Of a DNA stretch of 50,446 nucleotides, positions 4,986-14,426 are shown one piece after another; positions within the stretch are counted from its first letter, which is position 1; the number at the start of each line of letters is the position of its first letter. Location of the stretch: assembly GCA_937915885.1 (NCBI GenBank), contig CALGGP010000229.1, forward strand, positions 1 to 50,446. The letters are read 5' to 3'. The notes beneath the pieces are model-generated. The model made no database searches. It worked only from the letters and a program-made list of their open reading frames with translations, and was not told the DNA's origin. Made by a program: the position numbers and the translations under genes. The stretch comes from an uncultured Selenomonadales bacterium. GTDB taxonomy: Bacteria > Bacillota > Negativicutes > Selenomonadales > Selenomonadaceae.

Positions 4986-6542
4986 TTACGCCGCCTCTTT
5001 ATGTTCTGCCGACGTGGCGTCGTTGAGCAGTTTGATGCGTCCGAGCCCGATGTTGGGCATGCCGACCTTGTTAAGATATTCCGCAACAATATCTTCGACG
5101 AGATCATATTGCCCGAGGAGTTTCAGATCGGCGAGCATGTCAAAGCCGTCGCCGCCGGTGAACGCAAAATCCGTCGTCGCGATCGTGTAGGTCGCCGTGT
5201 TTTCGAGCCGATTGTTGCCGACAAAAATTTCGCCGACGCGTTCTCCGCGCGGAGCGGTCGGATCGAACTCGAACGTCATGCCGCTGACATTCATAAAGCC
5301 GCCGAACTCCGTCGGATATGCAAAAACGCTGTGCTCGAGCATGGCGCGGATTGCCTCTCCTCTGATCTCTCGCACTTGGACGTAATTGCTGAACGGGAAA
5401 ATCGAAAGCAATTCGCCGCGCGTGATCGAGCCGCTCGGCAGATCGGTGCGGATATCGCCGCCGTTGATGATCGCGATATCGGCGTGGGTCTTCCAACGGA
5501 AGGAATCGGCGACGAGATTTCCGAACTCCGACTCGCCGCAACGCACGACCGACCGATCGCCTGTCAAACGACGCTCGGCAGTGGCAACGACCTCACCAAA
5601 AATTTTTTGATTGCGCGCCTCGATATCGGCAAGTTTCGTTTCGACGACGGGATCGGGCTTGCCGGCGATCGCTTTTACTTCACTGTCGTCGAGCAACCGC
5701 GCGGATTTGGAAGTAATTCTGTGATGATCGATGTCGACCGCGACGCAACCGAGATAATGTCCGTGGCAGCCGGTTTGCGCAATGAGCGTTTTGCCGACGG
5801 TGAGACCCTCGGGCAATTCGGTGTGACTGTGACCGTCAATAATTATGTCGATGCCGTCAGTCTCGCGCGCGATGCGCTCACTCGTAAATTCGGAGCTGTC
5901 GTCGAGCCCCATGTGCATGACGCAAACAATCACATCGACCTTCGGGCGGAGTTTCGTGATCATCATCTTCGCTTGGACGATCGGATCGAGAAAATCAATC
6001 GTCGCAACGTTGGTCAACGCCGTCTTATACGCGCACTCGGGCGTCGTCAAACCAATCACGCCGACCTTGGTGCCGTCGCTCATCTTGAAAATTTTATAGG
6101 GTTTGAAGACGAGCTTTTGACTGTTACGACGGACGACGTTGGCGGCGAGCTCAACGCCTTTAAAATTTTTGGCGAGCGTCTCGAGGCGTTTGGAGCCGTA
6201 ATTGAAATCGTGATTGCCGGGGACGGAGACCTCGACGCCCGCCGCGTTCATCAGCTCGACCATATTCATGCCGGTGCTGATATTGATGCGGGGCGTGCCG
6301 TGAAAGGTGTCGCCGGCGTCGAACCAAAAGGTGTCTGGATTTTGAGCTTTGGTATTATTGACGGCGGCGGCGAACCACGCCAGCCCGATGGTCGTGCCGT
6401 TGTCGTCGGCGGGAGCGACGCGCGCGTGCTGATCGTTGGTGTGGAAGATGATCAGTTCCGACGCGTCGGCGCTCGGCAACAACACGAGCATCAAACACAA
6501 AATGAGTGCGGCGAAAATTTTTTGCCGTATGAACTTGAACAT
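4986..6542 (-). CDS. Secreted bifunctional metallophosphatase / 5'-nucleotidase (UshA/CpdB-like)
   Basis: A signal peptide MFKFIRQKIFAALILCLMLVLLPSADA is followed by metallophosphoesterase motifs HTNDQH, GDTFHG and GNHDF, and then a C-terminal 5'-nucleotidase domain. The start is chosen at the internal ATG, which has a GAGGTGA RBS. Confidence 0.85.
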   Translation of the reverse strand: MFKFIRQKIFAALILCLMLVLLPSADASELIIFHTNDQHARVAPADDNGTTIGLAWFAAAVNNTKAQNPDTFWFDAGDTFHGTPRINISTGMNMVELMNAAGVEVSVPGNHDFNYGSKRLETLAKNFKGVELAANVVRRNSQKLVFKPYKIFKMSDGTKVGVIGLTTPECAYKTALTNVATIDFLDPIVQAKMMITKLRPKVDVIVCVMHMGLDDSSEFTSERIARETDGIDIIIDGHSHTELPEGLTVGKTLIAQTGCHGHYLGCVAVDIDHHRITSKSARLLDDSEVKAIAGKPDPVVETKLADIEARNQKIFGEVVATAERRLTGDRSVVRCGESEFGNLVADSFRWKTHADIAIINGGDIRTDLPSGSITRGELLSIFPFSNYVQVREIRGEAIRAMLEHSVFAYPTEFGGFMNVSGMTFEFDPTAPRGERVGEIFVGNNRLENTATYTIATTDFAFTGGDGFDMLADLKLLGQYDLVEDIVAEYLNKVGMPNIGLGRIKLLNDATSAEHKEAA

Positions 6543-6589
6543 AAAAATCACCTCGGCGGCTTTATTCGACCGCCGCGCGGCAATTCCTT

Positions 6590-6618
6590 TTGACAGAGTC
6601 AATCGGTGAGTATATAAT
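6590..6618 (+). promoter_or_regulatory. Consensus sigma70/SigA-type promoter TTGACA-N17-TATAAT for the plus-strand operon
   Basis: TTGACA lies at 6590-6595 and TATAAT at 6613-6618, with exactly 17 nt between them. Confidence 0.6.
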
Positions 6619-6648
6619 AATTTTATGTTTGAAGGGAGGAGTGATTGT

Positions 6649-7683
6649 TTGTCATCGAATCAGACGAAGAATAAATTCGACGAGCGCTATGATATCCGTC
6701 TGGCGCGCCTCGACGAGATCGACGAGCTTATGACGTTCATCGACACTTGGTGGCGCAAGGGGCATATCATGGCGCGCGACCGAGCGATGTTCGAGTACGA
6801 GTACGTGGTCGACGGCAGAGTGAACATGATGATTGCCAAAGAAAGAGCTACGAATAAAATCGTCGGCTTCAACGGCTTTTTGATGGCGTCGAAGAACAAA
6901 GACAAGCTCGACTTATGGGGCAGCATGCGGAAAGTCGTCCCGGGCTCGATGGGATTGCTCGGCTTGGAGATCGTCAAGCGCAAGGAGCGACTTTTGAACG
7001 CGCGCTCGTATTTGAGCATGGGCATCAATGAAGATACGACCGTTCCGATCAACAAATACATGCGGCACTATGACGACGTCGGCAAGCTGACGCATTTTTA
7101 TTGTCTGTCCGATCGTTCGGATTATCGGATCGCGAAGGTTGCTCACTATGAGTCTTTCGAGGGAGAACGCGACTATCGAGTGCAGCTCACTCCGATCAAA
7201 AATCTTGACGACCTTCGGCGCGTCTACGATTTTTCCTGCAGCGAGGACGCGATCCCGTATAAGGACGAGTGGTACATCAACCGGCGATTTTTGGAGCATC
7301 CGATTTTCGAGTATCAAGTTTTCGGATTGTCGGAGGACGACGGCAAAGCTCAAGCGCTGTTGGTTTGTCGCGAGCAACCTTACGGCGGCGCGACGGCATT
7401 GCGCATCGTTGATTACATCGGCAAGCCTCACCTGTTCGGAGGGCTGTCGGGCTTTTTGAGCGACGCTCTGAAAAAATATGAGTACGTTGATCTCTACTGC
7501 CGTAACTTCGACGAAGCGTCCGTTCGACGAGCGGGGCTGATCGAGTTGTCGGACGACGACATCAACATAATCCCGAATTATTTTCAACCGTACGTGGCAA
7601 AGAACGTCGATATTTGGTGCGCCACCCCCAAGGGTAAAGCGGTGTTCTTCAAAGCGGACGGCGATCAGGATCGTCCCAACTGA
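6649..7683 (+). CDS. Hypothetical protein, possibly a GNAT / FemAB-like acyltransferase fold
   Basis: The ORF is long and compositionally normal. The proposed start is TTG 6649, 7 nt after GGGAGGAG, because ATG 6625 falls at the predicted transcription start. The N-terminal region (YDIRLARLDEIDELMTFID...) is GNAT-like only by eye. The C-terminus ends FFKADGDQDRPN. Confidence 0.5.
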   Translation: MSSNQTKNKFDERYDIRLARLDEIDELMTFIDTWWRKGHIMARDRAMFEYEYVVDGRVNMMIAKERATNKIVGFNGFLMASKNKDKLDLWGSMRKVVPGSMGLLGLEIVKRKERLLNARSYLSMGINEDTTVPINKYMRHYDDVGKLTHFYCLSDRSDYRIAKVAHYESFEGERDYRVQLTPIKNLDDLRRVYDFSCSEDAIPYKDEWYINRRFLEHPIFEYQVFGLSEDDGKAQALLVCREQPYGGATALRIVDYIGKPHLFGGLSGFLSDALKKYEYVDLYCRNFDEASVRRAGLIELSDDDINIIPNYFQPYVAKNVDIWCATPKGKAVFFKADGDQDRPN

Positions 7684-7711: not shown

Positions 7712-7963
7712 ATGGACAACCTTAATGACAGCGTCCGCGCGGTGCTGATTCAAATTCGCAAGGAGATCGAGCCGCATCTCGACGAGACCGATCTCGTGAC
7801 GAACGGACTCATCGATTCGCTTGACATCATGAATTTGATCATGAAGCTCGAGGAAACGTTTGACATCGAGATCGATCCCGAAGACGTCGTAGCCGAAAAC
7901 TTTGACTCCGTCGCGGCGATCATTGCGCTCATCAACAAATGTCGAGGTCAATCCGATGTCTGA
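7712..7963 (+). CDS. Acyl/peptidyl carrier protein (DltC/ACP-like)
   Basis: It is an 83-aa acidic protein with the phosphopantetheine-attachment-type motif GLIDSLDIMNLI. An AGGAGAG RBS precedes it. Confidence 0.8.
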   Translation: MDNLNDSVRAVLIQIRKEIEPHLDETDLVTNGLIDSLDIMNLIMKLEETFDIEIDPEDVVAENFDSVAAIIALINKCRGQSDV

Positions 7964-8406
7964 GCGAAACGAACTCGCGCTCCACCACATTGGATTTGCC
8001 GTCCGCTCAATCGAAGAAACGCGTCCCGCTTTTGAAGCGTTGGGCGCCGAATTTTTTCATGCCTCCTCCGATCTCGAGCGCAATTTAAATTTTAGTTTCG
8101 CGCGTCTGAACGGGGGGGGGGGGCTCTGCAGTAGTTGAATTGGTTTCACCGCGAGACCCGGAGTTGCCATGCGCGGTTACTCGAATGGTTGAGAAGCAGG
8201 CGTGCGCGCCCTACCACATCTGTTTGAAGACAAACGACTTGGACGCGGAGCTGAAACGATTAAAGCCGTTGGGCTTCAAACGGATCAGCACTCCGCGCAC
8301 GACACATATCCATGGTCGCGCGACGCGAGCCTGTTTCCTGTTCAGCGCGACGATGGGTTTGGTCGAACTGATTATGGAGTGTGCAACGGATGAGCAATCC
8401 CAATGA
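7956..8406 (+). pseudogene. VOC (glyoxalase / methylmalonyl-CoA-epimerase-like) enzyme interrupted by a frameshift in a G12 tract
   Basis: The N-terminal part (LHHIGFAVRSIEE...) lies in the frame of ORF 7902..8138. The C-terminal part (ELVSP....PYHICLKTNDLD...GLVELIME) lies in the frame of ORF 8140..8406. G11 or G14 would give one continuous ORF of about 150 aa. Confidence 0.65.
8112..8123 (+). repeat. Homopolymer G12 inside the VOC gene
   Basis: Counted directly, and consistent with the translation NGGGGLCSS* of the upstream ORF. Confidence 0.9.
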
Positions 8407-9832
8407 AACGATTTTATCTCGACTGAAGTTTTTCGCCGACGAGACGCCCGACAAAATTTGTTTGATCGACGGCGCGCGCGGCGAGCAATGTACCTATAAA
8501 GATTTTTGGGCTCGAGTGCTGAGATTTGCGGCGATGGTCGAGCCAAATAAATTTTATCTGTTGAAGACGCGACAGACGATCGATCATTTGATCGCCTTCT
8601 ACGGAGTGCAGGCGGCGGGCTCGACAGCGATCCCCGTCGAGGCAACGACGTCGGACGAGCGGCTCAACGAGCTTGCCGATCGATTCCGCGCGGAGCTTCT
8701 GTCGAGCGATCCAATTACGAGCGCGGAGCCGATTGATTTTGTCGAGCCCGATCCCGAGCGAATTGCCTGCGTGATCTTGACGACGGGAACGACAGGCGTC
8801 AGCAAGGGCGTGATGTCGAGCTTTCGCTGTCGATTTTGCGGCGCGGACAATGTTCGATACTCTTATTCGATCACGCCCGATGACGTTGCATTGATCCCGC
8901 AGATGTTGTCGCACAGCGGCGGGCTCCGTCGTGTTGAGGCGATGCTCGTCAGCGGCGCAACAGCTGTGATCATGGGCGCCGTGATGCTGTTCGGAAATAT
9001 TTTCGGCGCCGTCAAAAAATATCATTGCAATATCCTGCAGTTCGTCCCGACGCAAGTCGCTCAAATCCTCCGTCGGGCACGAAAACTTTTGGTCGAAGTC
9101 GCTCCGCAATTGCGCATCGTCAGCGTCGGCAGCGCCGTCATTCCCGAGCACGACAAAGAACAACTTCGAGAACTTCTGCCGACCGTTCGCTTATTCAACG
9201 ACTTCGGCTCGACGGAGGCGTGCGGCTCGGCGTATTTCGAGTGGAGCGCTTTTGAGCCCAAGCCCGATTGCGTCGGCGTTGAGAGTATTCACTCGCGCAT
9301 AGTTTTTCTCGACGACGACGGCGCGGTACTCGAGCACACCGATCGCGATCACCCGGGCATTCTTGTGACCGAGGGCGGGACTTTGATGACGGGATATTTC
9401 GACGCGCCGGATTTGACGGCGGAGGTTCTTCGCGACGGTCGAGTGTTGTCGGCGGATTTGGGCTGGCGCGGTGCGGACGGCATGATTTACATTCTCGGAC
9501 GGCGCGACGACATGATTGTCAGCGGTGCCAACAAAATTTCGCCCGTCGAGCTCGAAAATATCATATCGCGGATTGCGGGCGTCAAAGAATGCGCCTGCGT
9601 CGGAGTGTCGGACAAAATTATGGGGCAAGTGCCGGTGATTTTTGTGGTGTGGGATCGAGAGCCGCTGCCGCTCGAGTGCTTGACGGCGGAGCTTGAGAAA
9701 CGCGTCGACCGATTCAAAATCCCGCGCCCCGAAAATATTCATGTCATTGACGCCCTGCCTCGGACGCCCGGCACGGGTAAAGTTATCAAACGCGAACTTA
9801 CAGAGAGGCTGATCAAAAATGAAAACGTATGA
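8390..9832 (+). CDS. AMP-dependent adenylate-forming enzyme (DltA / acyl-CoA synthetase superfamily)
   Basis: The core motifs are present: ILTTGTTGVSKGV (A3), GSTEACG (A5), GRRDDMIVSGANKISPVELE (A8) and PRTPGTGKVIKREL (A10). The start is taken at ATG 8390; GTG 8381 is also possible. Confidence 0.9.
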   Translation: MSNPNETILSRLKFFADETPDKICLIDGARGEQCTYKDFWARVLRFAAMVEPNKFYLLKTRQTIDHLIAFYGVQAAGSTAIPVEATTSDERLNELADRFRAELLSSDPITSAEPIDFVEPDPERIACVILTTGTTGVSKGVMSSFRCRFCGADNVRYSYSITPDDVALIPQMLSHSGGLRRVEAMLVSGATAVIMGAVMLFGNIFGAVKKYHCNILQFVPTQVAQILRRARKLLVEVAPQLRIVSVGSAVIPEHDKEQLRELLPTVRLFNDFGSTEACGSAYFEWSAFEPKPDCVGVESIHSRIVFLDDDGAVLEHTDRDHPGILVTEGGTLMTGYFDAPDLTAEVLRDGRVLSADLGWRGADGMIYILGRRDDMIVSGANKISPVELENIISRIAGVKECACVGVSDKIMGQVPVIFVVWDREPLPLECLTAELEKRVDRFKIPRPENIHVIDALPRTPGTGKVIKRELTERLIKNENV

Positions 9833-10683
9833 AATTTTTTGGACGGGAGGCTTTGATTCAACGCTTCGGGTCGTTCAATTGTCGCGTTACCCTATCAAAA
9901 TTCAACCGGTGTTTTGCAAAGGAGTTGCCGCCGACATCCGCAAAAGCGAGTTCTACGAGCTGCGAGCCATCAAACAGATATCAGCTTTGTTGCGCACCAA
10001 ACCCGGCGTCAAGGCTGAACTTTTGCCGCTGAAGATTGTTTATCGTTCGTCGGCCCCCCCCCCATTTGGATCAAGACTTCGTGTATGAACCTCTTCCGAA
10101 GGATCATGGGGTCGCCGTCGCCTTCCGCAAAATTTATATCTCAATGATGGCTCCGAGGCGCAACCAACTTGCGACCGGACGCGGGGTGCTCAACGCCGTG
10201 AATGTTGATCTTTATATCGATGCGCAGTACCAATGGCTTGCCGCTTATGCCAACAGTCGTGAGGCGCCCGTCGAGATCGGAATCACGGCGAGGTACGTAA
10301 ATAAATTTCTGGCGGCAATCGGCGGCGACGATGCAATCGATGAGATTGACAACGGTCTTTTCAAGCAATACGTTTTGAGTAAGGAAAGATGTAAATCTGC
10401 CGACGGCTATAAAATTTTCGGGGGCTTTGCGTTTTCGTTTTACGATGCGCCGCTCAAGCCCGAGTTGGTGAAAGAATATAGGCGTCTCGATTGCGAGGAC
10501 ATAATGAATTTGACGTGGTTCTGTTACGATCCCATTGACGGTGAACCATGCGGGCAGTGTTGGACTTGCGTGCATACTTATCGTGACGGCATCACAAATC
10601 GTTTCAGCCCCGCCGCACTCGAACGCTATCATAAACGCGAAAAGGAGTTGAGCTCAACTCCGAACAATGAGGAGGATACTTAG
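9819..10683 (+). pseudogene. QueC-like PP-loop ATPase, paralogue 1, interrupted by a frameshift in a C10 tract
   Basis: It has an N-terminal PP-loop WTGGFDST and a C-terminal Cys cluster CGQCWTCVHTYRDG (the QueC-type CGxCxxCxxRxxG). The ORFs 9819..10088 and 10036..10683 join if the C-tract is 9 or 12 long. Confidence 0.7.
10054..10063 (+). repeat. Homopolymer C10 inside QueC-like paralogue 1
   Basis: Counted directly. Both flanking ORF translations (SSAPPPF / RRPPPHL) run through it. Confidence 0.9.
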
Positions 10684-10686
10684 ACG

Positions 10687-11538
10687 ATGAAAATATATAA
10701 CGTCCTTTGGTCTGGCGGTGTCGACAGCACGTTTGTCGTGACACAGCTGTCGCAATACCCCGTGGTGATCCGACCGTTTTACATCAAGGGACAAACCTTT
10801 CGACTGTCGGAACCGCAGGAGTTGTCGGCGATCAAAGCGATCCGTGAGTTGCTGATTGCGGACGAGCGGACGAAGGCGGAGATCATGGAGCCGGAGATAA
10901 TCGAGGCGAGCGATCCGCGCATAAAGGATCGCGAAGTCGTCAAGGCTTGGCGTCGAATTTACATGCGATTGTTGGAGCGATATAAAGCCGAGCACAATGG
11001 AAAATTGCCGGCGGCGGGCAGCCAACAAATTTATGCGGATGGCGCCTATATTTCCCCGCAGTATGCATCGTTCGCCTCCTTAACCAAAAACTTGAACTCG
11101 GATTTTGAGATCGGAATTATTTATGCCGATCATGTTTCGTCGGCTTTTAATTCTTCGGATTCGATTTTGATCGAGTACGATGAACTGACTGAAAGGAAAG
11201 TTCTTCGGCTACGCGATGATATCTCGGACAAAGACTCTTACACTTTGTTTAAAGATATGCGGCTCCCGATTGCGGGACAAGGCATGGATAAACGCGATGT
11301 TTGGAAGTGGTACTCCGATCACGGCTATCTGATGGTGCGCTCGAAAACAAATTTCTGTCAAGCTCCCATTTCCACGGGGGGGGGGGCCGTCGAGCCTTGC
11401 GGAGTCTGCACACCGTGTATCTGCGTGATTCGAGAAGGTGTGCTTGAGCCCTTCACCGAAGCCGGTCTCGCTCGCTATCGCGACTACGAAGAAAATCATG
11501 AGAGGGAGCCTGAGCGTTTCAGACTTAAAGGTTTTTGA
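10687..11538 (+). CDS. QueC-like PP-loop ATPase, paralogue 2 (intact)
   Basis: It has the PP-loop WSGGVDST, the C-terminal CGVCTPCICVIREG motif and a GAGGAGGA RBS. It contains an in-frame G11 tract that encodes TGGGA immediately before the Cys cluster. Confidence 0.75.
   Translation: MKIYNVLWSGGVDSTFVVTQLSQYPVVIRPFYIKGQTFRLSEPQELSAIKAIRELLIADERTKAEIMEPEIIEASDPRIKDREVVKAWRRIYMRLLERYKAEHNGKLPAAGSQQIYADGAYISPQYASFASLTKNLNSDFEIGIIYADHVSSAFNSSDSILIEYDELTERKVLRLRDDISDKDSYTLFKDMRLPIAGQGMDKRDVWKWYSDHGYLMVRSKTNFCQAPISTGGGAVEPCGVCTPCICVIREGVLEPFTEAGLARYRDYEENHEREPERFRLKGF
11376..11386 (+). repeat. Homopolymer G11 inside QueC-like paralogue 2 (in frame)
   Basis: Counted directly. The translation is ISTGGGAVEPCG. 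Confidence 0.9.
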
Positions 11539-11556
11539 ACGAAGGAATTGCTGAGC

Positions 11557-12267
11557 ATGAATTTTGATCAATCGGACATCACAATCTCACACAATCGTCG
11601 GGTGAAGTATTTTCCGCGCGGCGAATTGTTGTGCCTCGAGCGGAGCGAACTTACGATGAATAAGGTTGCCGACTCCGGCACTTACCTTAAATATTTTCCC
11701 GAGGCTGTCTACATCGAAGACGCCGACGGAAGTCTCTACGGCATATTGACTAACGGCGACGTGTTGAAATCGCTGAACTTCGGCGAGCCGTTGATCAATC
11801 GGAAATTTTTTCGATTGGACGACGCATCGAAAATCCGCGCGGATTTTTTTCAAGAGTTCTTTGACCTGCATCGATCGGTCAGATGCATCCCGTTCGTCGA
11901 AAATGATCGGCTCGTCGGTGAGTGGCGGCTCCTCATCGGCGAGGAAGATTTTGAATCGAAAATGTGTTGGGAGCCGATCCAATCAATTGCCGATAAACGT
12001 TTAAGCGAGTTGGAGGGCAACGCCGTCGTTTGCGATCAAAAATCTTTTCGGGCGCGTCTGATCGAAAGTATTCGCGACGGACAGGATGACGGCAATAAAA
12101 TTATTCCGTTGTACGATGTCTATATGGAGTGCCTCATTCGTTTTTTGACGGGCAAATTTCGAGAGCATCACATTCCCTTCTTTTATGTCGAGGCGCCGTC
12201 GACAAAAAAAAATTCTGCACTCCGCCGATTGGATACAAGATGTTCTCCGTCGAAATCTCCGCACTGA
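11557..12267 (+). CDS. CBS-domain-like protein, probably the N-terminal part of a larger frameshifted gene
   Basis: The segments AVYIEDADGSLYGILTNGDVLKSL and CIPFVENDRLVGEWRLL resemble a CBS pair. The ORF leaves frame at the A9 tract and ends 55 nt later. With A8 it would read straight into ORF 12185..13609. Confidence 0.5.
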   Translation: MNFDQSDITISHNRRVKYFPRGELLCLERSELTMNKVADSGTYLKYFPEAVYIEDADGSLYGILTNGDVLKSLNFGEPLINRKFFRLDDASKIRADFFQEFFDLHRSVRCIPFVENDRLVGEWRLLIGEEDFESKMCWEPIQSIADKRLSELEGNAVVCDQKSFRARLIESIRDGQDDGNKIIPLYDVYMECLIRFLTGKFREHHIPFFYVEAPSTKKNSALRRLDTRCSPSKSPH

Positions 12268-13609
12268 GGATATTGCCCGCGACGAGTCTCAATTGCTCGA
12301 TCTCTACGATGACGACGCCGATCGGGCGTTTATGCGCGAGACGGAGTATGTCAATTTTGTTTATGTGGATCGGGGATATTATTTTAATCTGGCGGATTAC
12401 GACGGCAAGGGCTTGCATGTGGTCGACGGCAGGCGATTGACGACGGACGTTCCGAAAAATCCCGCGCGGAGGATTCATATCTTCGGGCAATGCACGGCGC
12501 GCGGCTCGCATGTGATCGACAGTCACACCATCGAAAGCTGCCTCCAACGAAAACTCAATGCCGCCTGCCCCGGCACATGGGAGGTTGTCAATTACGGTGT
12601 GGCGGGCAGAACCGGCGGCGATATGAACGATCTGAATTACATTCTGTGCTCGGATTTCCGCGCGGGCGACGTAGTCATTTGTCTTGCCGCCTATCGCGAT
12701 TCGACCGTGGAGCTTTTGAAAACATTCGGCGCGATTTGTCTTGAAACTTCGAGTGTGCTTGCCGCGCCGACGAACGTTGCGAAGTTGGGGCGTTGGTTTT
12801 TGGATATTCCGCTCCACATCAATCATCGGGCGTGCGAATTGATTGCGGATCATTTGTTTGCGTCGCTCGACGATCGGCTCGAGCTGTCGTCTCATTCGAT
12901 CGATGATGCAGCCCGCGAGCGGGTTTCATTTTATGACGAGTTCATGCCCGCCGTCGTCAACAGTCGAGCGTTTAAAAATTATATCGAGCGACTCAAAAAT
13001 ATTTTGGGTGATCAGATTATCAATAGGGGGGGGGGTGGATCATGCGGCGCGATCGTAATGAATTGCAATCCATTCACGCTCGGGCATCGATATTTGATCG
13101 AAGAGGCGGCGAAAACCGTCGAGACTTTGATCGTGTTCGTCGTGAGAGAGGATCGCTCGAAATTCCATTTCGCGGATCGGATCAGGTTGGTGCGCGAGGG
13201 CGTCAAAGATTTGACGAACGTCATCGTGGAATCGAGCGGGCAATTCATGATCTCGACGGAAACCTTCCCCGAGTATTTTTTCAAGAGTCAACTGCAGGAA
13301 GTAGCGATCGATTCATCTTATGATGTGAGGCTGTTCGGAAAATACATTGCACCGGCGCTTGGGATCACGATTCGATTCGTCGGCGAGGAACCGTTTGATG
13401 CTGTCACTTCGTCATACAATCGGACAATGCATGAAATTTTGCCGGAGTGCGGAGTCAAGGTCGTCGAAATTCCGCGCAAGAAGGTGAACGGCGAAGTGAT
13501 CAGCGCATCGAAGGTACGGGCGCTGTTGAAGGAAGGAAAAATGGAGGAATTACGGGCTTTCGTTCCGTCGCCGACATATGAGTATCTGCGTCAAAATTGG
13601 CGAAACTAG
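12185..13609 (+). CDS. Two-domain protein: N-terminal SGNH/GDSL-like region (weak) plus C-terminal CitC-type ([citrate lyase] ligase-like) nucleotidyltransferase domain
   Basis: The C-terminus GAIVMNCNPFTLGHRYLIEEAA...VFVV.ED.S.F.F..R..LV matches the cytidylyltransferase-like domain of citrate lyase ligase. The middle region (RIHIFGQCTARGSH...INHRACELIADHL) is SGNH-like only by eye. No RBS precedes ATG 12185. An in-frame G10 tract encodes the RGGGG linker between the domains. Confidence 0.7.
   Translation: MSRRRRQKKILHSADWIQDVLRRNLRTEDIARDESQLLDLYDDDADRAFMRETEYVNFVYVDRGYYFNLADYDGKGLHVVDGRRLTTDVPKNPARRIHIFGQCTARGSHVIDSHTIESCLQRKLNAACPGTWEVVNYGVAGRTGGDMNDLNYILCSDFRAGDVVICLAAYRDSTVELLKTFGAICLETSSVLAAPTNVAKLGRWFLDIPLHINHRACELIADHLFASLDDRLELSSHSIDDAARERVSFYDEFMPAVVNSRAFKNYIERLKNILGDQIINRGGGGSCGAIVMNCNPFTLGHRYLIEEAAKTVETLIVFVVREDRSKFHFADRIRLVREGVKDLTNVIVESSGQFMISTETFPEYFFKSQLQEVAIDSSYDVRLFGKYIAPALGITIRFVGEEPFDAVTSSYNRTMHEILPECGVKVVEIPRKKVNGEVISASKVRALLKEGKMEELRAFVPSPTYEYLRQNWRN
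12204..12212 (+). repeat. Homopolymer A9 at the junction of ORFs 11548..12267 and 12185..13609
   Basis: Counted directly. The two frames read STKKNSAL and RQKKILHS through it. Confidence 0.9.
13026..13035 (+). repeat. Homopolymer G10 in the inter-domain linker of the CitC-like protein (in frame)
   Basis: Counted directly. The translation is INRGGGGSCGAIV. Confidence 0.9.
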
Positions 13610-14426
13610 TCGGTGTCGAAACCAATCTTAGTGACGGCGTTGGTCGACAAGACTTTGTCGGTGAGGGGGGCGGATTGAGCGATCATTGCAGGAGAAATTT
13701 CATCGGAAGGCAATTCCCCTCCGATCAGCAACGGGCGTATGTCAACGGTGCCGGGCTCGGGCGAAGTGACGGCGACATCGCGAACTAACGATAGGCGCCA
13801 TAAGAACCAGCGACACTGAGCGACTCGGGGGTTTCATAAATGCGCTCGCGAAGGGCATCATCACTTTCGATGTCGGCGCCTCCGTCGGACGTGGTGATGT
13901 TGACTGCCGATTGCAGGAACGGTTGAGGATCGACTATCTGATCGATCTCTCCGACATCGTACCAATTCCCCGATGGTCCCCGCGCCGTGCACGTCGCCCG
14001 AGCCGGCATCGACAGCGTATTCTTCGGTATCGTCAAATCCTCGTCGAGCGCGAAATATACTCCGTCGCCCGCCGTAAATCTCACTCCGCGCGGAATTACC
14101 GTCGCCTTGCTCCTCAACGCCGACAGCGTCAATTCCATCGTCACCGTCGCCGCCGTCGCCTCCAGCCGCGTCACTCCCACCAGCGCTCCCAGATGATCAA
14201 GGTAATCGCCCGTCGAGTACGCCAGCAAATTCATCTTCGCGCATTGATCGATCAATAAGCGCTGCTGTTGGATCACTGCCTCCACCCCGCGCAAAAATAA
14301 TCGCAACGGATCGGCGCGCGCCAGCTTCCGCCCGAGCAGTTCTTCTACCGTTGATGTCACCTGCAGGTCGAGTTCGTCGATGTCGGCGTCCGCGAATGTC
14401 AACGATGGTAATTGTGTCAGTTTCAT
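13606..14426 (-). pseudogene. Baseplate J-like protein (P2 gpJ / XkdT family), frameshifted and C-terminally truncated
   Basis: The N-terminal 213 aa end ...ESLSVAGSYGAYR*. A second frame continues RDVAVTSPEPGTVDIRPLLIGGELPSDEISPAMIAQSAPLTDKVLSTNAVTKIGFDTD*, which is typical baseplate-J C-terminal sequence. About 10 aa are missing at the joint, and about 60 aa are missing at the end. Confidence 0.75.

What the first reader, a model, noticed from the sequence alone, without database searches (positions are those of the whole stretch)
11557..13609. Possible three-domain fusion (CBS pair, SGNH-like, CitC-like adenylyltransferase) gated by an A9 tract and a G10 linker
ORF 11548..12267 has CBS-like motifs and runs out of frame exactly at A9. 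ORF 12185..13609 has no RBS at its ATG, and its frame continues the CBS ORF if one A is removed (...EAPSTKKILHSADWIQD...). The G10 tract encodes the Gly linker immediately before the CitC-like domain (GGGGSCGAIVMNCNPFTLGHRYL).

Two slippery tracts therefore sit at the two domain boundaries. Slippage could yield the CBS domain alone, a two-domain protein or the full three-domain protein. A CBS-regulated CitC-type enzyme would itself be unusual.
Basis: partly seen in the sequence, partly recalled or inferred. Interest (0 to 1): 0.6.

Follow-up and report, generated by a model that had tools for sequence, protein, structure and literature searches.

The report
Frameshifted phase-variable glycan-modification enzyme gene
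The two overlapping reading frames are one gene for a three-part sugar-modifying enzyme in a gut or rumen Selenomonadaceae bacterium; it is broken at a run of nine A's and carries a run of G's whose length differs between public assemblies, the usual way bacteria randomly switch surface-sugar genes on and off.

Summary
A9 lies at 12204-12212 and G10 at 13026-13035. Removing one A joins ORF 11557-12267 to ORF 12185-13609, giving a 683-aa protein.

- **One gene:** full-length single-polypeptide homologues exist (731 aa, 42% identity, 100% coverage) and align without a gap across the A9 junction.
- **Domains:** structure models and Foldseek give an N-terminal CBS pair and a divergent SGNH-like middle domain in which a near-invariant Cys replaces the catalytic Ser. 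Pfam gives a CitC-type ligase domain (E 4e-70).
- **Setting:** the gene ends a seven-gene operon behind a consensus promoter. The closest homologue sits between flagellin genes with the same partner genes.
- **G tract:** it behaves as a real hypermutable switch. Public assemblies hold otherwise identical products in the G10 (in-frame) and G9 (truncated) states. In the same genus, 12 of 23 copies of a paralogous subfamily carry C8-C14 at the same linker, and 11 of those 12 are out of frame.
- **A9:** the same state appears on two contigs, and no A8 or A10 product is on record. No homologue in the alignment has a Lys-Lys or A run there. It is best read as a frameshift in an A8 run, possibly leaky through transcriptional slippage.

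I class this as a new member of a known kind.

The parts
6590..6618 (+). Consensus sigma-70-type promoter (TTGACA-17-TATAAT, 12/12) in front of the operon
6625..7683 (+). 352-aa protein with no Pfam family; a conserved partner of the target gene (35% identity to the gene beside homologue P0001)
7712..7963 (+). 83-aa carrier protein (PP-binding)
   Evidence: PF00550, E 2.9e-7
7956..8406 (+). Glyoxalase_4/VOC-family gene split into two frames by the G12 tract at 8112-8123. The two halves match profile positions 1-46 and 59-104; G11 would be in frame.
8381..9832 (+). AMP-binding (adenylate-forming) enzyme, 483 aa
9819..10683 (+). QueC-like PP-loop ATPase, paralogue 1, split by the C10 tract at 10054-10063 (C9 would be in frame)
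10687..11538 (+). QueC-like PP-loop ATPase, paralogue 2, with the G11 tract at 11376-11386 in frame (encodes GGG)
11557..11937 (+). CBS pair (Bateman module), residues 1 to about 127 of the target protein
   Evidence: AF2 model, pLDDT 89.6; 42 Foldseek hits with E<=1e-3; the 50 rows listed are CBS-domain proteins
11938..12210 (+). Alpha/beta segment after the CBS pair, ending in the conserved FFYVEAP motif
12204..12212 (+). A9 tract where the frame breaks. A8 (ACA AAA AAA ATT = TKKI) would be in frame. As assembled, ORF1 ends at 12267 after 18 out-of-frame residues.
12212..13025 (+). Middle module in the +1 frame: a helical lead-in plus a divergent SGNH-like domain, with conserved FGxC (Cys312) and invariant His420
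13026..13035 (+). G10 tract in the variable linker (encodes GGGG, in frame). The G9 state gives ...RGGVDHAARS-stop and is on record in other assemblies.
13046..13609 (+). CitC-type (Citrate_ly_lig, HIGH-nucleotidyltransferase) domain, followed by the stop codon

Best explanation
ORF1 and ORF2 are one gene for a 683-aa enzyme with three modules: a CBS pair plus a small alpha/beta segment, a Cys-type SGNH-like domain, and a CitC-type adenylate-forming ligase domain. It is the last gene of a seven-gene operon: unknown 352-aa protein, carrier protein, VOC-family protein, AMP-binding enzyme, two QueC-like ATPases and this gene. The organism is an uncultured Selenomonadaceae bacterium.

The operon most likely decorates a surface glycan, probably a flagellin-linked nonulosonic-acid glycan. 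The gene is a contingency (phase-variable) gene. Replication slippage in the G tract of the interdomain linker switches between the full-length enzyme (G10) and a protein without the ligase domain (G9 or G11).

The A9 tract is a one-base insertion in an ordinary A8 run. As assembled, translation stops after the N-terminal module, so the gene is OFF or only weakly expressed. Weak expression is possible because RNA polymerase slips on runs of nine A's, and some transcripts would regain the frame.

**Shown:** single-gene status, the domain folds, the genomic context, the G9/G10 difference between assemblies, and the recurrence of linker tracts in the genus.

**Inferred:** the glycan target, the chemistry, and any leakiness at A9. 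For the chemistry I propose that the ligase domain activates a small carboxylic acid and passes it to a thiol (the carrier protein or Cys312), and that the SGNH-like domain then transfers it to the sugar.
For: **One gene**
- Homologues P0001-P0004 (674-731 aa) cover 96-100% of the fused protein.
- They align without a gap across the junction.

**Folds**
- N-terminal model, pLDDT 89.6: 42 hits with E<=1e-3, and all 50 rows listed are CBS-domain proteins.
- Middle-domain model, pLDDT 88: the top hits are mostly SGNH/GDSL hydrolases.
- Cys312 directly follows the first core strand, and His420 precedes the last helix. Cys312 is conserved in at least 90% of 71 sequences and His420 in all of them.
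- PF08218 scores E 4e-70.

**Context**
- P0001 lies between two flagellin genes, next to homologues of the window's 352-aa gene (E 2e-60), carrier protein and AMP-binding enzyme.
- P0004 lies beside DUF2172, FkbH, PP-binding and NeuB genes.
- The window's genome has 9 flagellin N-domain matches and 2 strong NeuB matches. Several sit on the same contigs as genes that carry G/C tracts.

**Phase variation**
- G/C tract lengths peak at 10.
- The ten other tract-bearing reading frames checked include GT2, GT8, GT9 and GT61 glycosyltransferases, a NeuC-type epimerase, a cytidylyltransferase, an ATP-grasp enzyme and a type I-like methylase/specificity fusion.
- Otherwise identical products exist in the G10 state (438 aa, contig 50,446 nt) and in the G9 state (254 aa and 241 aa, plus a separate 183-aa ligase ORF, on contigs of 24,066 and 4,770 nt).
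- In the genus, 12 of 23 copies of a paralogous subfamily carry C8-C14 in the same linker and 11 of these are out of frame. All 11 copies with interrupted Pro codons are in frame.

**A9**
- The 236-aa truncated product is on record on 2 contigs from NCBI, Logan and ENA, and no A8 or A10 product is on record.
- Nine A/T is the typical slippage-prone length, and 8A-to-9A 'pseudo pseudogenes' have been described (PMC1088944).
Against: - The G9/G10 difference could therefore be assembler or sequencing noise at a long G run rather than population heterogeneity.
- I could not see the other contigs' DNA because near-identical records are withheld. It is unknown whether they come from independent samples.
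- mfd in the same assembly is also broken at a T9, so some A/T-run lengths in this assembly may be wrong.
- Three of the seven operon genes are out of frame, which also fits a decaying operon.
- No glycan or enzyme data exist for this family (searches found no literature).
- Foldseek scores for the SGNH-like domain are weak (best E 3.9e-4, TM at most 0.5).
Confidence: 0.68

Rival explanations
1. Programmed two-product gene. A9 would be a selected transcriptional-slippage site, as in Thermus dnaX or Shigella mxiE, so that one gene makes mostly a stand-alone CBS protein and a set fraction of the full-length enzyme.
For: - A9 is the canonical slippage-prone length (PMC1088944).
- The A9 state is reproduced on two contigs.
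- ORF2 has no Shine-Dalgarno sequence, so its expression would depend on a frame change.
Against: - None of the nine homologues aligned has an A run or a Lys-Lys at this position, and all are single in-frame ORFs.
- No close relative exists to test conservation.
- The tract lies in a conserved structural segment, not at a clean module end.
- Two other genes of the same operon are broken at G/C tracts, so simple frameshift mutation explains all three breaks.
- A -1 ribosomal shift on A AAA AAA enters the wrong frame (frame 0 ORF 12129..12440 is junk).
Confidence: 0.12
2. Assembly or sequencing artefact. The true sequence would have A8, the gene would be intact, and there would be nothing special at the A tract.
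For: - mfd, a conserved housekeeping gene, is frame-broken at a T9 in the same assembly.
- Reads could not be inspected.
Against: - The exact A9-truncated 236-aa product is on record from three sources (NCBI, Logan, ENA) on two contigs, and no A8-derived product is on record.
- Genome-wide, 50 of 99 A/T9 runs lie in frame inside long ORFs. Only about 2-3 of the 9 flagged candidates at A/T runs of 9 or more look like real breaks on inspection, so there is no systematic homopolymer error.
Confidence: 0.1
3. Decaying operon. The whole cluster would be a non-functional remnant next to a truncated prophage, and the frameshifts would be the first steps of pseudogenisation rather than reversible switching.
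For: - Three of seven genes are out of frame.
- The neighbourhood holds a truncated Baseplate_J gene. The scan's earlier unchecked note e1-4105820 reports broken genes at the left end.
Against: - Every break sits exactly at a homopolymer and is one base from being restored.
- There are no other stops or indels, the catalytic motifs are intact, and a perfect promoter is retained.
- The G tract differs between assemblies.
- The same pattern recurs in many species of the genus.
Confidence: 0.1

Closest known systems
Poly-G/C contingency genes of the Campylobacter jejuni flagellin-glycosylation and capsule loci, where pairs of annotated ORFs are fused or split by a poly-G tract (my own knowledge, for example Cj1325/26 and Cj0031/32; phase variation of Pse/Leg genes is noted in PMC13317340)
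   Same: - Homopolymeric G/C tracts of about 8-12 inside glycan-modification genes.
- Several tracts in one cluster, in mixed ON and OFF states.
- Carrier-protein, AMP-binding and PP-loop genes in the same kind of locus.
- Tracts elsewhere in the genome in glycosyltransferases and a restriction-modification methylase.
   Different: - The lineage differs (Selenomonadaceae, Negativicutes, 54% G+C). A search for 'Selenomonas' with 'phase variation' and 'homopolymeric' found no paper.
- The enzyme family differs.
- The tract sits in an interdomain linker, so the OFF state keeps two of the three modules.
- Switching has not been shown experimentally here.
[Citrate (pro-3S)-lyase] ligase CitC (TIGR00124 / PF08218)
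   Same: The C-terminal 180 residues match PF08218 end to end (E 4e-70), including the HIGH-type TLGH motif and the ISASxVR motif. By analogy, the domain forms an acyl-adenylate and acylates a thiol.
   Different: - The score is below the equivalog cut-off (219.8 vs 262.1 bits).
- Only profile positions 120-330 match, so the N-terminal part of CitC is replaced by the CBS and SGNH-like modules.
- No convincing citrate lyase alpha subunit is found in the genome.
- The context is glycan and flagellin genes, not citDEF.
SGNH/GDSL hydrolases and acyltransferases (for example E. coli TesA; Veillonella GDSL protein 4rw0)
   Same: - The predicted fold matches weakly.
- The position of the nucleophile after the first strand, the Gly/Asn blocks and the C-terminal His are retained.
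   Different: - Cys replaces the catalytic Ser (FGxC instead of GDS).
- The Asp-His spacing is DxxxH.
- There is no Pfam GDSL hit and scores are weak (TM at most 0.5).
Transcriptional-slippage genes and '8A-to-9A pseudo pseudogenes' (Thermus dnaX, Shigella mxiE; Baranov et al. 2005, PMC1088944)
   Same: A run of nine A's in the sense strand joins two overlapping frames. The long product needs a one-base change in run length.
   Different: The run is not conserved in any homologue, and there are no RNA data. Here a one-base deletion (or a two-base insertion) is needed.

Membership tests
CitC, [citrate (pro-3S)-lyase] ligase | Citrate_ly_lig catalytic domain (PF08218) present | tested here: met
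   E 4.3e-70, profile positions 2-182 of 182; 238 bits in the genome search
CitC, [citrate (pro-3S)-lyase] ligase | Full-length equivalog score (TIGR00124) above the curated cut-off | tested here: not met
   219.8 bits vs cut-off 262.1; only profile positions 120-330 of 335 match
CitC, [citrate (pro-3S)-lyase] ligase | Association with citrate lyase genes (citDEF) | tested here: not met
   No such genes in the window. The only CitF match in the 89%-complete genome is marginal and partial (27.1 bits).
SGNH/GDSL hydrolase superfamily | SGNH (flavodoxin-like alpha/beta) fold | tested here: inconclusive
   AF2 model pLDDT 88. Most of the top 50 Foldseek hits are SGNH/GDSL proteins, but they are weak (best E 3.9e-4, TM at most 0.5).
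SGNH/GDSL hydrolase superfamily | Catalytic Ser in block I (GDS) and His in block V | tested here: not met
   Block I reads FGxC with near-invariant Cys312. His420 is invariant, with spacing DxxxH.
SGNH/GDSL hydrolase superfamily | Pfam Lipase_GDSL / Lipase_GDSL_2 profile match | tested here: not met
   No hit for the window protein, and a hit in only 1 of 71 homologues
CBS pair (Bateman module) | Pfam CBS profile above the gathering score | tested here: not met
   E 0.048, 14.4 bits vs 24. Ten of 71 homologues do score (best 1.6e-6).
CBS pair (Bateman module) | Two-CBS fold | tested here: met
   AF2 pLDDT 89.6. 42 PDB hits with E<=1e-3, the 50 rows listed all being CBS-domain proteins (target-normalised TM 0.5-0.65 for stand-alone pairs, rmsd about 3-4.5 A over about 105-120 columns).
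Homopolymer-tract contingency (phase-variable) gene | Tract of 8 or more inside the reading frame, where a one-base length change alters the product | tested here: met
   G10 and A9
Homopolymer-tract contingency (phase-variable) gene | Tract-length differences between otherwise identical sequences | tested here: met
   G tract: G10 product P0384 vs G9 products P0242 and P0383, 100% identical elsewhere. A tract: only A9 is on record.
Homopolymer-tract contingency (phase-variable) gene | Mixed ON and OFF states of the same tract site across related genes | tested here: met
   Genus paralogues: 12 copies with a tract (11 OFF, 1 ON) and 11 copies without a tract, all ON. Two further in-frame tract copies appear.
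Homopolymer-tract contingency (phase-variable) gene | Length heterogeneity within one population (reads) and a phenotypic switch | not testable with these tools
Programmed transcriptional slippage gene | Slippery A/T run and two-frame layout conserved in orthologues | tested here: not met
   None of the nine homologues aligned has the run, and all are single ORFs

The most novel reading that the evidence does not exclude
The protein would be a self-contained, ATP-driven, CoA-independent acyltransferase for surface-glycan decoration. The CitC-type domain would adenylate a small acid and load it onto the conserved Cys312 of the SGNH-like domain (or onto the operon's carrier protein). The SGNH-like domain would pass it to a nonulosonic-acid sugar, and the CBS pair would tie activity to adenine-nucleotide status. 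The hypermutable linker tract, which has arisen independently as poly-G here and as poly-C in genus paralogues, would be selected to uncouple the ligase domain. The bacterium would then switch between two glycan chemotypes rather than simply ON and OFF. That would make Selenomonadaceae a second, Firmicutes-lineage example of Campylobacter-style glycan phase variation.
Probability: 0.2. Interest if true: 0.7.

Novelty: new member of a known kind. Interest (0 to 1): 0.5.

Why it matters
- It would extend homopolymer-driven phase variation of surface-glycan genes, a textbook feature of Campylobacter, Helicobacter, Neisseria and Haemophilus, to gut and rumen Selenomonadaceae. A search for 'Selenomonas' with 'phase variation' and 'homopolymeric' found no paper.
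- It points to a widespread uncharacterised enzyme family with a testable mechanism. The middle domain alone has 780 representative sequences, and relatives occur in Lachnospiraceae, Oscillospiraceae, Treponema, Synergistaceae, Bacteroidales and others.
- For annotation, the 'two genes' here, and the split pairs in at least 11 related genomes, are single genes in an OFF phase.

Tried and rejected
- **DNA of the other assemblies:** The look-up of encoding contigs found nothing for five window products, because near-identical records are withheld.
- **Metagenome scans:** an exact pattern scan around the A tract found nothing. A protein-based metagenome scan found no close relative.
- **First homologue search:** restricting it to residues 1-470 found nothing. 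The whole-length search worked.
- **-1 ribosomal frameshifting on A AAA AAA:** rejected, because the -1 frame is junk and ORF2 is in the +1 frame.
- **Independent translation of ORF2:** rejected as unlikely, because ATG 12185 has no Shine-Dalgarno sequence and the public gene calls start at different internal codons.
- **True citrate-lyase ligase:** rejected.
- **Genome-wide 'plus or minus one base restores a long ORF' test:** it has a 3-5% false-positive floor from adjacent genes, so it only excludes gross homopolymer error.
- **Submitting the fused protein as the window's own:** no unique four-letter word could be found for this, so the domains were modelled separately.
- **Literature:** three searches linking citrate lyase ligase to flagellin or nonulosonic acids found nothing relevant.
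Full report
**Observation**

The window is contig C229 of a 417-contig, 3.11-Mb assembly with 54% G+C. A9 lies at 12204-12212 and G10 at 13026-13035. ORF1 has its likely ATG at 11557, with AAGGAA about 9 nt upstream, and a TTG alternative at 11548. It runs to 12267. ORF2 runs from 12185 to 13609 in the +1 frame and has no Shine-Dalgarno sequence. Deleting one A gives an open 683-aa frame that reads through ...YVEAPSTKKILHSADW.... The G10 tract encodes the GGGG of ...NRGGGGSCGAIVMNCNPFTLGH....

**One gene or two**

A whole-length search with the fused protein found 805 relatives. They include single polypeptides that cover it end to end:
- P0001: 731 aa, 42% identity, 100% coverage, E 6e-166, from a Lachnospiraceae MAG
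- P0002: 717 aa
- P0003: 674 aa
- P0004: 687 aa
- P0029, P0031, P0069, P0083 and P0111

In their alignment the junction segment FFYVEAPSTKKI lines up without a gap against LLFVEPPVASKI, VLYFEAPRIDKI, FLYVNPPQQSRL and the rest, and Pro214 is nearly invariant. In its in-frame form the tract would be A8 (ACA AAA AAA ATT = T-K-K-I). None of the nine homologues aligned has Lys-Lys or an A run there.

**Domains**

- *C-terminal domain.* The C-terminal 180 residues are a Citrate_ly_lig domain (PF08218, E 4.3e-70). The protein falls below the CitC equivalog cut-off and matches only profile positions 120-330 of 335.
- *N-terminal domain.* Pfam CBS is sub-threshold for ORF1 (E 0.048), although 10 of 71 homologues score for it. 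An AlphaFold2 model of residues 1-218 (pLDDT 89.6) matches CBS-domain proteins over roughly residues 1-127: 42 hits with E<=1e-3, and all 50 rows listed are of this kind. An extra alpha/beta segment follows.
- *Middle domain.* It has no Pfam family. Its model (pLDDT 88) finds mostly SGNH/GDSL hydrolases at the top of the list, but weakly (best E 3.9e-4, TM at most 0.5). Across 71 sequences, R293, G310 and H420 are invariant, and D280, G291, C312, G316, D321, T324, Q330 and N345 are conserved in at least 90%. Cys312 directly follows the first core strand, where SGNH enzymes carry the nucleophilic Ser. His420 precedes the last helix, where the block V His sits. The domain is therefore SGNH-like with Cys in place of Ser.
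- *Family size.* The middle domain alone has 780 representative homologues at E<=1e-3, most of them in proteins of 500-730 aa.

**Where the tracts sit**

G10 lies in a poorly conserved linker immediately before the ligase domain. A9 is not at a flexible boundary. It lies about 90 residues after the CBS pair ends, inside a conserved segment.

**Context**

- *Operon.* A perfect TTGACA-17-TATAAT promoter at 6590-6618 precedes seven co-directional genes: an unknown 352-aa protein, an 83-aa PP-binding carrier, a Glyoxalase_4 gene, an AMP-binding enzyme, two QueC-like ATPases and the target gene.
- *Tracts in the operon.* Five long homopolymers lie in it. Three break frames: G12 in the VOC gene, C10 in QueC-like 1 and A9 in the target. 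Two are in frame: G11 in QueC-like 2 and G10 in the target.
- *Downstream.* A truncated Baseplate_J gene and a phage tail module follow the operon.
- *Homologue neighbourhoods.* The closest homologue, P0001, lies between two flagellin genes. Next to it are homologues of the 352-aa protein (35% identity, E 2e-60), the carrier protein (40%) and an AMP-binding enzyme. P0004 lies beside DUF2172/DUF4910, FkbH_N, MaoC, SDR, PP-binding, GNAT, formyltransferase and NeuB genes. P0069 sits in a cluster rich in glycosyltransferases.
- *Own genome.* It has nine flagellin N-domain matches and two strong NeuB matches. It has no convincing citrate lyase.
- *Organism.* Its ribosomal protein L2 is 92% identical to that of Selenomonadaceae MAGs.

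Taken together, this points to a surface-glycan modification module, most likely for a flagellin nonulosonic-acid glycan. That target is an inference from context, not a demonstration.

**Are the tracts real switches?**

- *Genome-wide.* G/C runs of 8 or more number 49, and their lengths peak at 10: counts are 8, 12, 15 and 5 for lengths 8, 9, 10 and 11. Ten of the tract-bearing reading frames on other contigs were checked against Pfam. They include GT2, GT8, GT9 and GT61 glycosyltransferases, a NeuC-type epimerase, a double cytidylyltransferase, a sugar-transfer ATP-grasp enzyme, an HMGL-like protein and an N6_Mtase/Methylase_S fusion. This is the classical contingency-gene repertoire.
- *Across the genus.* SGNH-like/CitC-like paralogues are found in 30 of 36 sampled species, with different N-terminal regions. 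One subfamily has a conserved linker motif, NYP-PPP-x-HRYGIP. I recovered 23 copies from 17 of 76 genomes. Eleven copies encode the prolines with interrupted codons, and all eleven are in frame. Twelve copies carry C8-C14; eleven of these are out of frame, with the 368-415-codon upstream part in another frame, and one is in frame. Two more in-frame tract copies appeared earlier. A homopolymer at the linker between the middle domain and the ligase domain is thus recurrent. It has arisen as poly-C (Pro) in those genes and as poly-G (Gly) here.
- *Between assemblies.* The profile-free search returned P0242, 100% identical to the window's middle domain but ending ...INRGGVDHAARS. That is exactly the G9 reading. 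Cluster look-up shows:
  - G9 products on a 24,066-nt contig (Logan/ENA) and on a 4,770-nt contig (NCBI)
  - a separately called 183-aa ligase-only ORF on the 24,066-nt contig
  - the G10 in-frame 438-aa call on the 50,446-nt contig

  So the G tract differs between public assemblies of otherwise identical sequence.
- *The A tract.* By contrast, the A9-truncated 236-aa product is on record on two contigs from NCBI, Logan and ENA. No A8 or A10 product is on record.

**Cautions**

- mfd in this assembly is frame-broken at a T9 inside its Helicase_C domain, so occasional A/T-run errors or real mutations exist here. Still, half of all A/T9 runs lie in frame in long ORFs, and the 'broken' rate is near the false-positive floor. 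That argues against systematic homopolymer error.

**Mechanism**

The G tract is best read as a replication-slippage switch. G10 gives the full enzyme. G9 stops 7 codons after the tract, and G11 adds about 93 junk codons. Both OFF states keep the CBS and SGNH-like modules.

The A9 is best read as a one-base insertion in an ordinary A8 run. It currently ends translation after the N-terminal module plus 18 out-of-frame residues.

Nine A's is the typical slippage-prone length, and 8A-to-9A 'pseudo pseudogenes' that still yield product have been described (PMC1088944). Low-level full-length protein is therefore plausible but untested. A -1 ribosomal shift cannot rescue the gene, because ORF2 is in the +1 frame.

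The chemistry is inferred from the known CitC reaction and from the conserved Cys/His. I propose an acyl-adenylate, transfer to a thiol (carrier protein or Cys312), and then transfer to the sugar.

**Comparison and novelty**

The behaviour matches poly-G contingency genes of Campylobacter glycosylation loci, including ORF pairs fused or split by a tract (this comparison rests on my own knowledge). What is new is the lineage, the enzyme family and the recurrent interdomain position of the tract. The protein is not a CitC, because it fails the equivalog score and has no citrate lyase partner. It is not a canonical SGNH hydrolase, because it has no catalytic Ser and no profile hit. I class it as a new member of a known kind.

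The scan's own earlier notes on this window (e1-4105804 and e1-4105805) describe the same tracts and operon. No look-alike was noted on other DNA.

Noticed in passing
G000 contig C322, around 6886: The transcription-repair coupling factor gene mfd is frame-broken at a T9 run inside its Helicase_C domain. Adding one T restores an 1103-aa frame with all the TRCF domains. This is either a real mutation or an A/T-run error in the assembly.
   Followed up: partly
G000 contigs C6, C25, C147, C191, C244, C246, C253, C273, C354, C401 and others: 49 G/C runs of 8 or more, with lengths peaking at 10. Many lie inside glycosyltransferases, NeuC-like and cytidylyltransferase genes, and an N6_Mtase+Methylase_S fusion (C11 near its 3' end, C253:7209). 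Several are on contigs that also carry flagellin or NeuB genes.
   Followed up: partly
Genus relatives, loci L112-L134, for example G011:C35 (four tandem copies): A genus-specific subfamily of SGNH-like/CitC-like genes has a linker motif NYP-PPP-x-HRYGIP. It is encoded either by interrupted Pro codons (always in frame) or by C8-C14 runs (11 of 12 out of frame).
   Followed up: yes
L021 (G031:C35), gene at 1916-783 on the minus strand: This C13-bearing copy is in frame across the tract but has an in-frame TAG about 17 codons upstream (…KFLT*NNFF…).
   Followed up: no
window 8112-8123, 10054-10063, 11376-11386: Three further long tracts lie in the same operon. G12 splits a Glyoxalase_4 gene, C10 splits QueC-like paralogue 1, and G11 is in frame in paralogue 2. 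The C10-split and G11 products are each on record on two contigs. The G12-state product is on one contig only.
   Followed up: partly
window 4986-6602 (-) and 5001-6593 (+): The 538-aa minus-strand ORF looks like a metallophosphatase or 5'-nucleotidase (signal peptide, GNHDF motif). The 530-aa plus-strand ORF over the same bases has no Pfam hit and is probably a shadow frame.
   Followed up: no
window 13785-14426 (-): The Baseplate_J gene matches only profile positions 2-139 of 255. The prophage tail module therefore appears cut off right next to the end of the operon.
   Followed up: no
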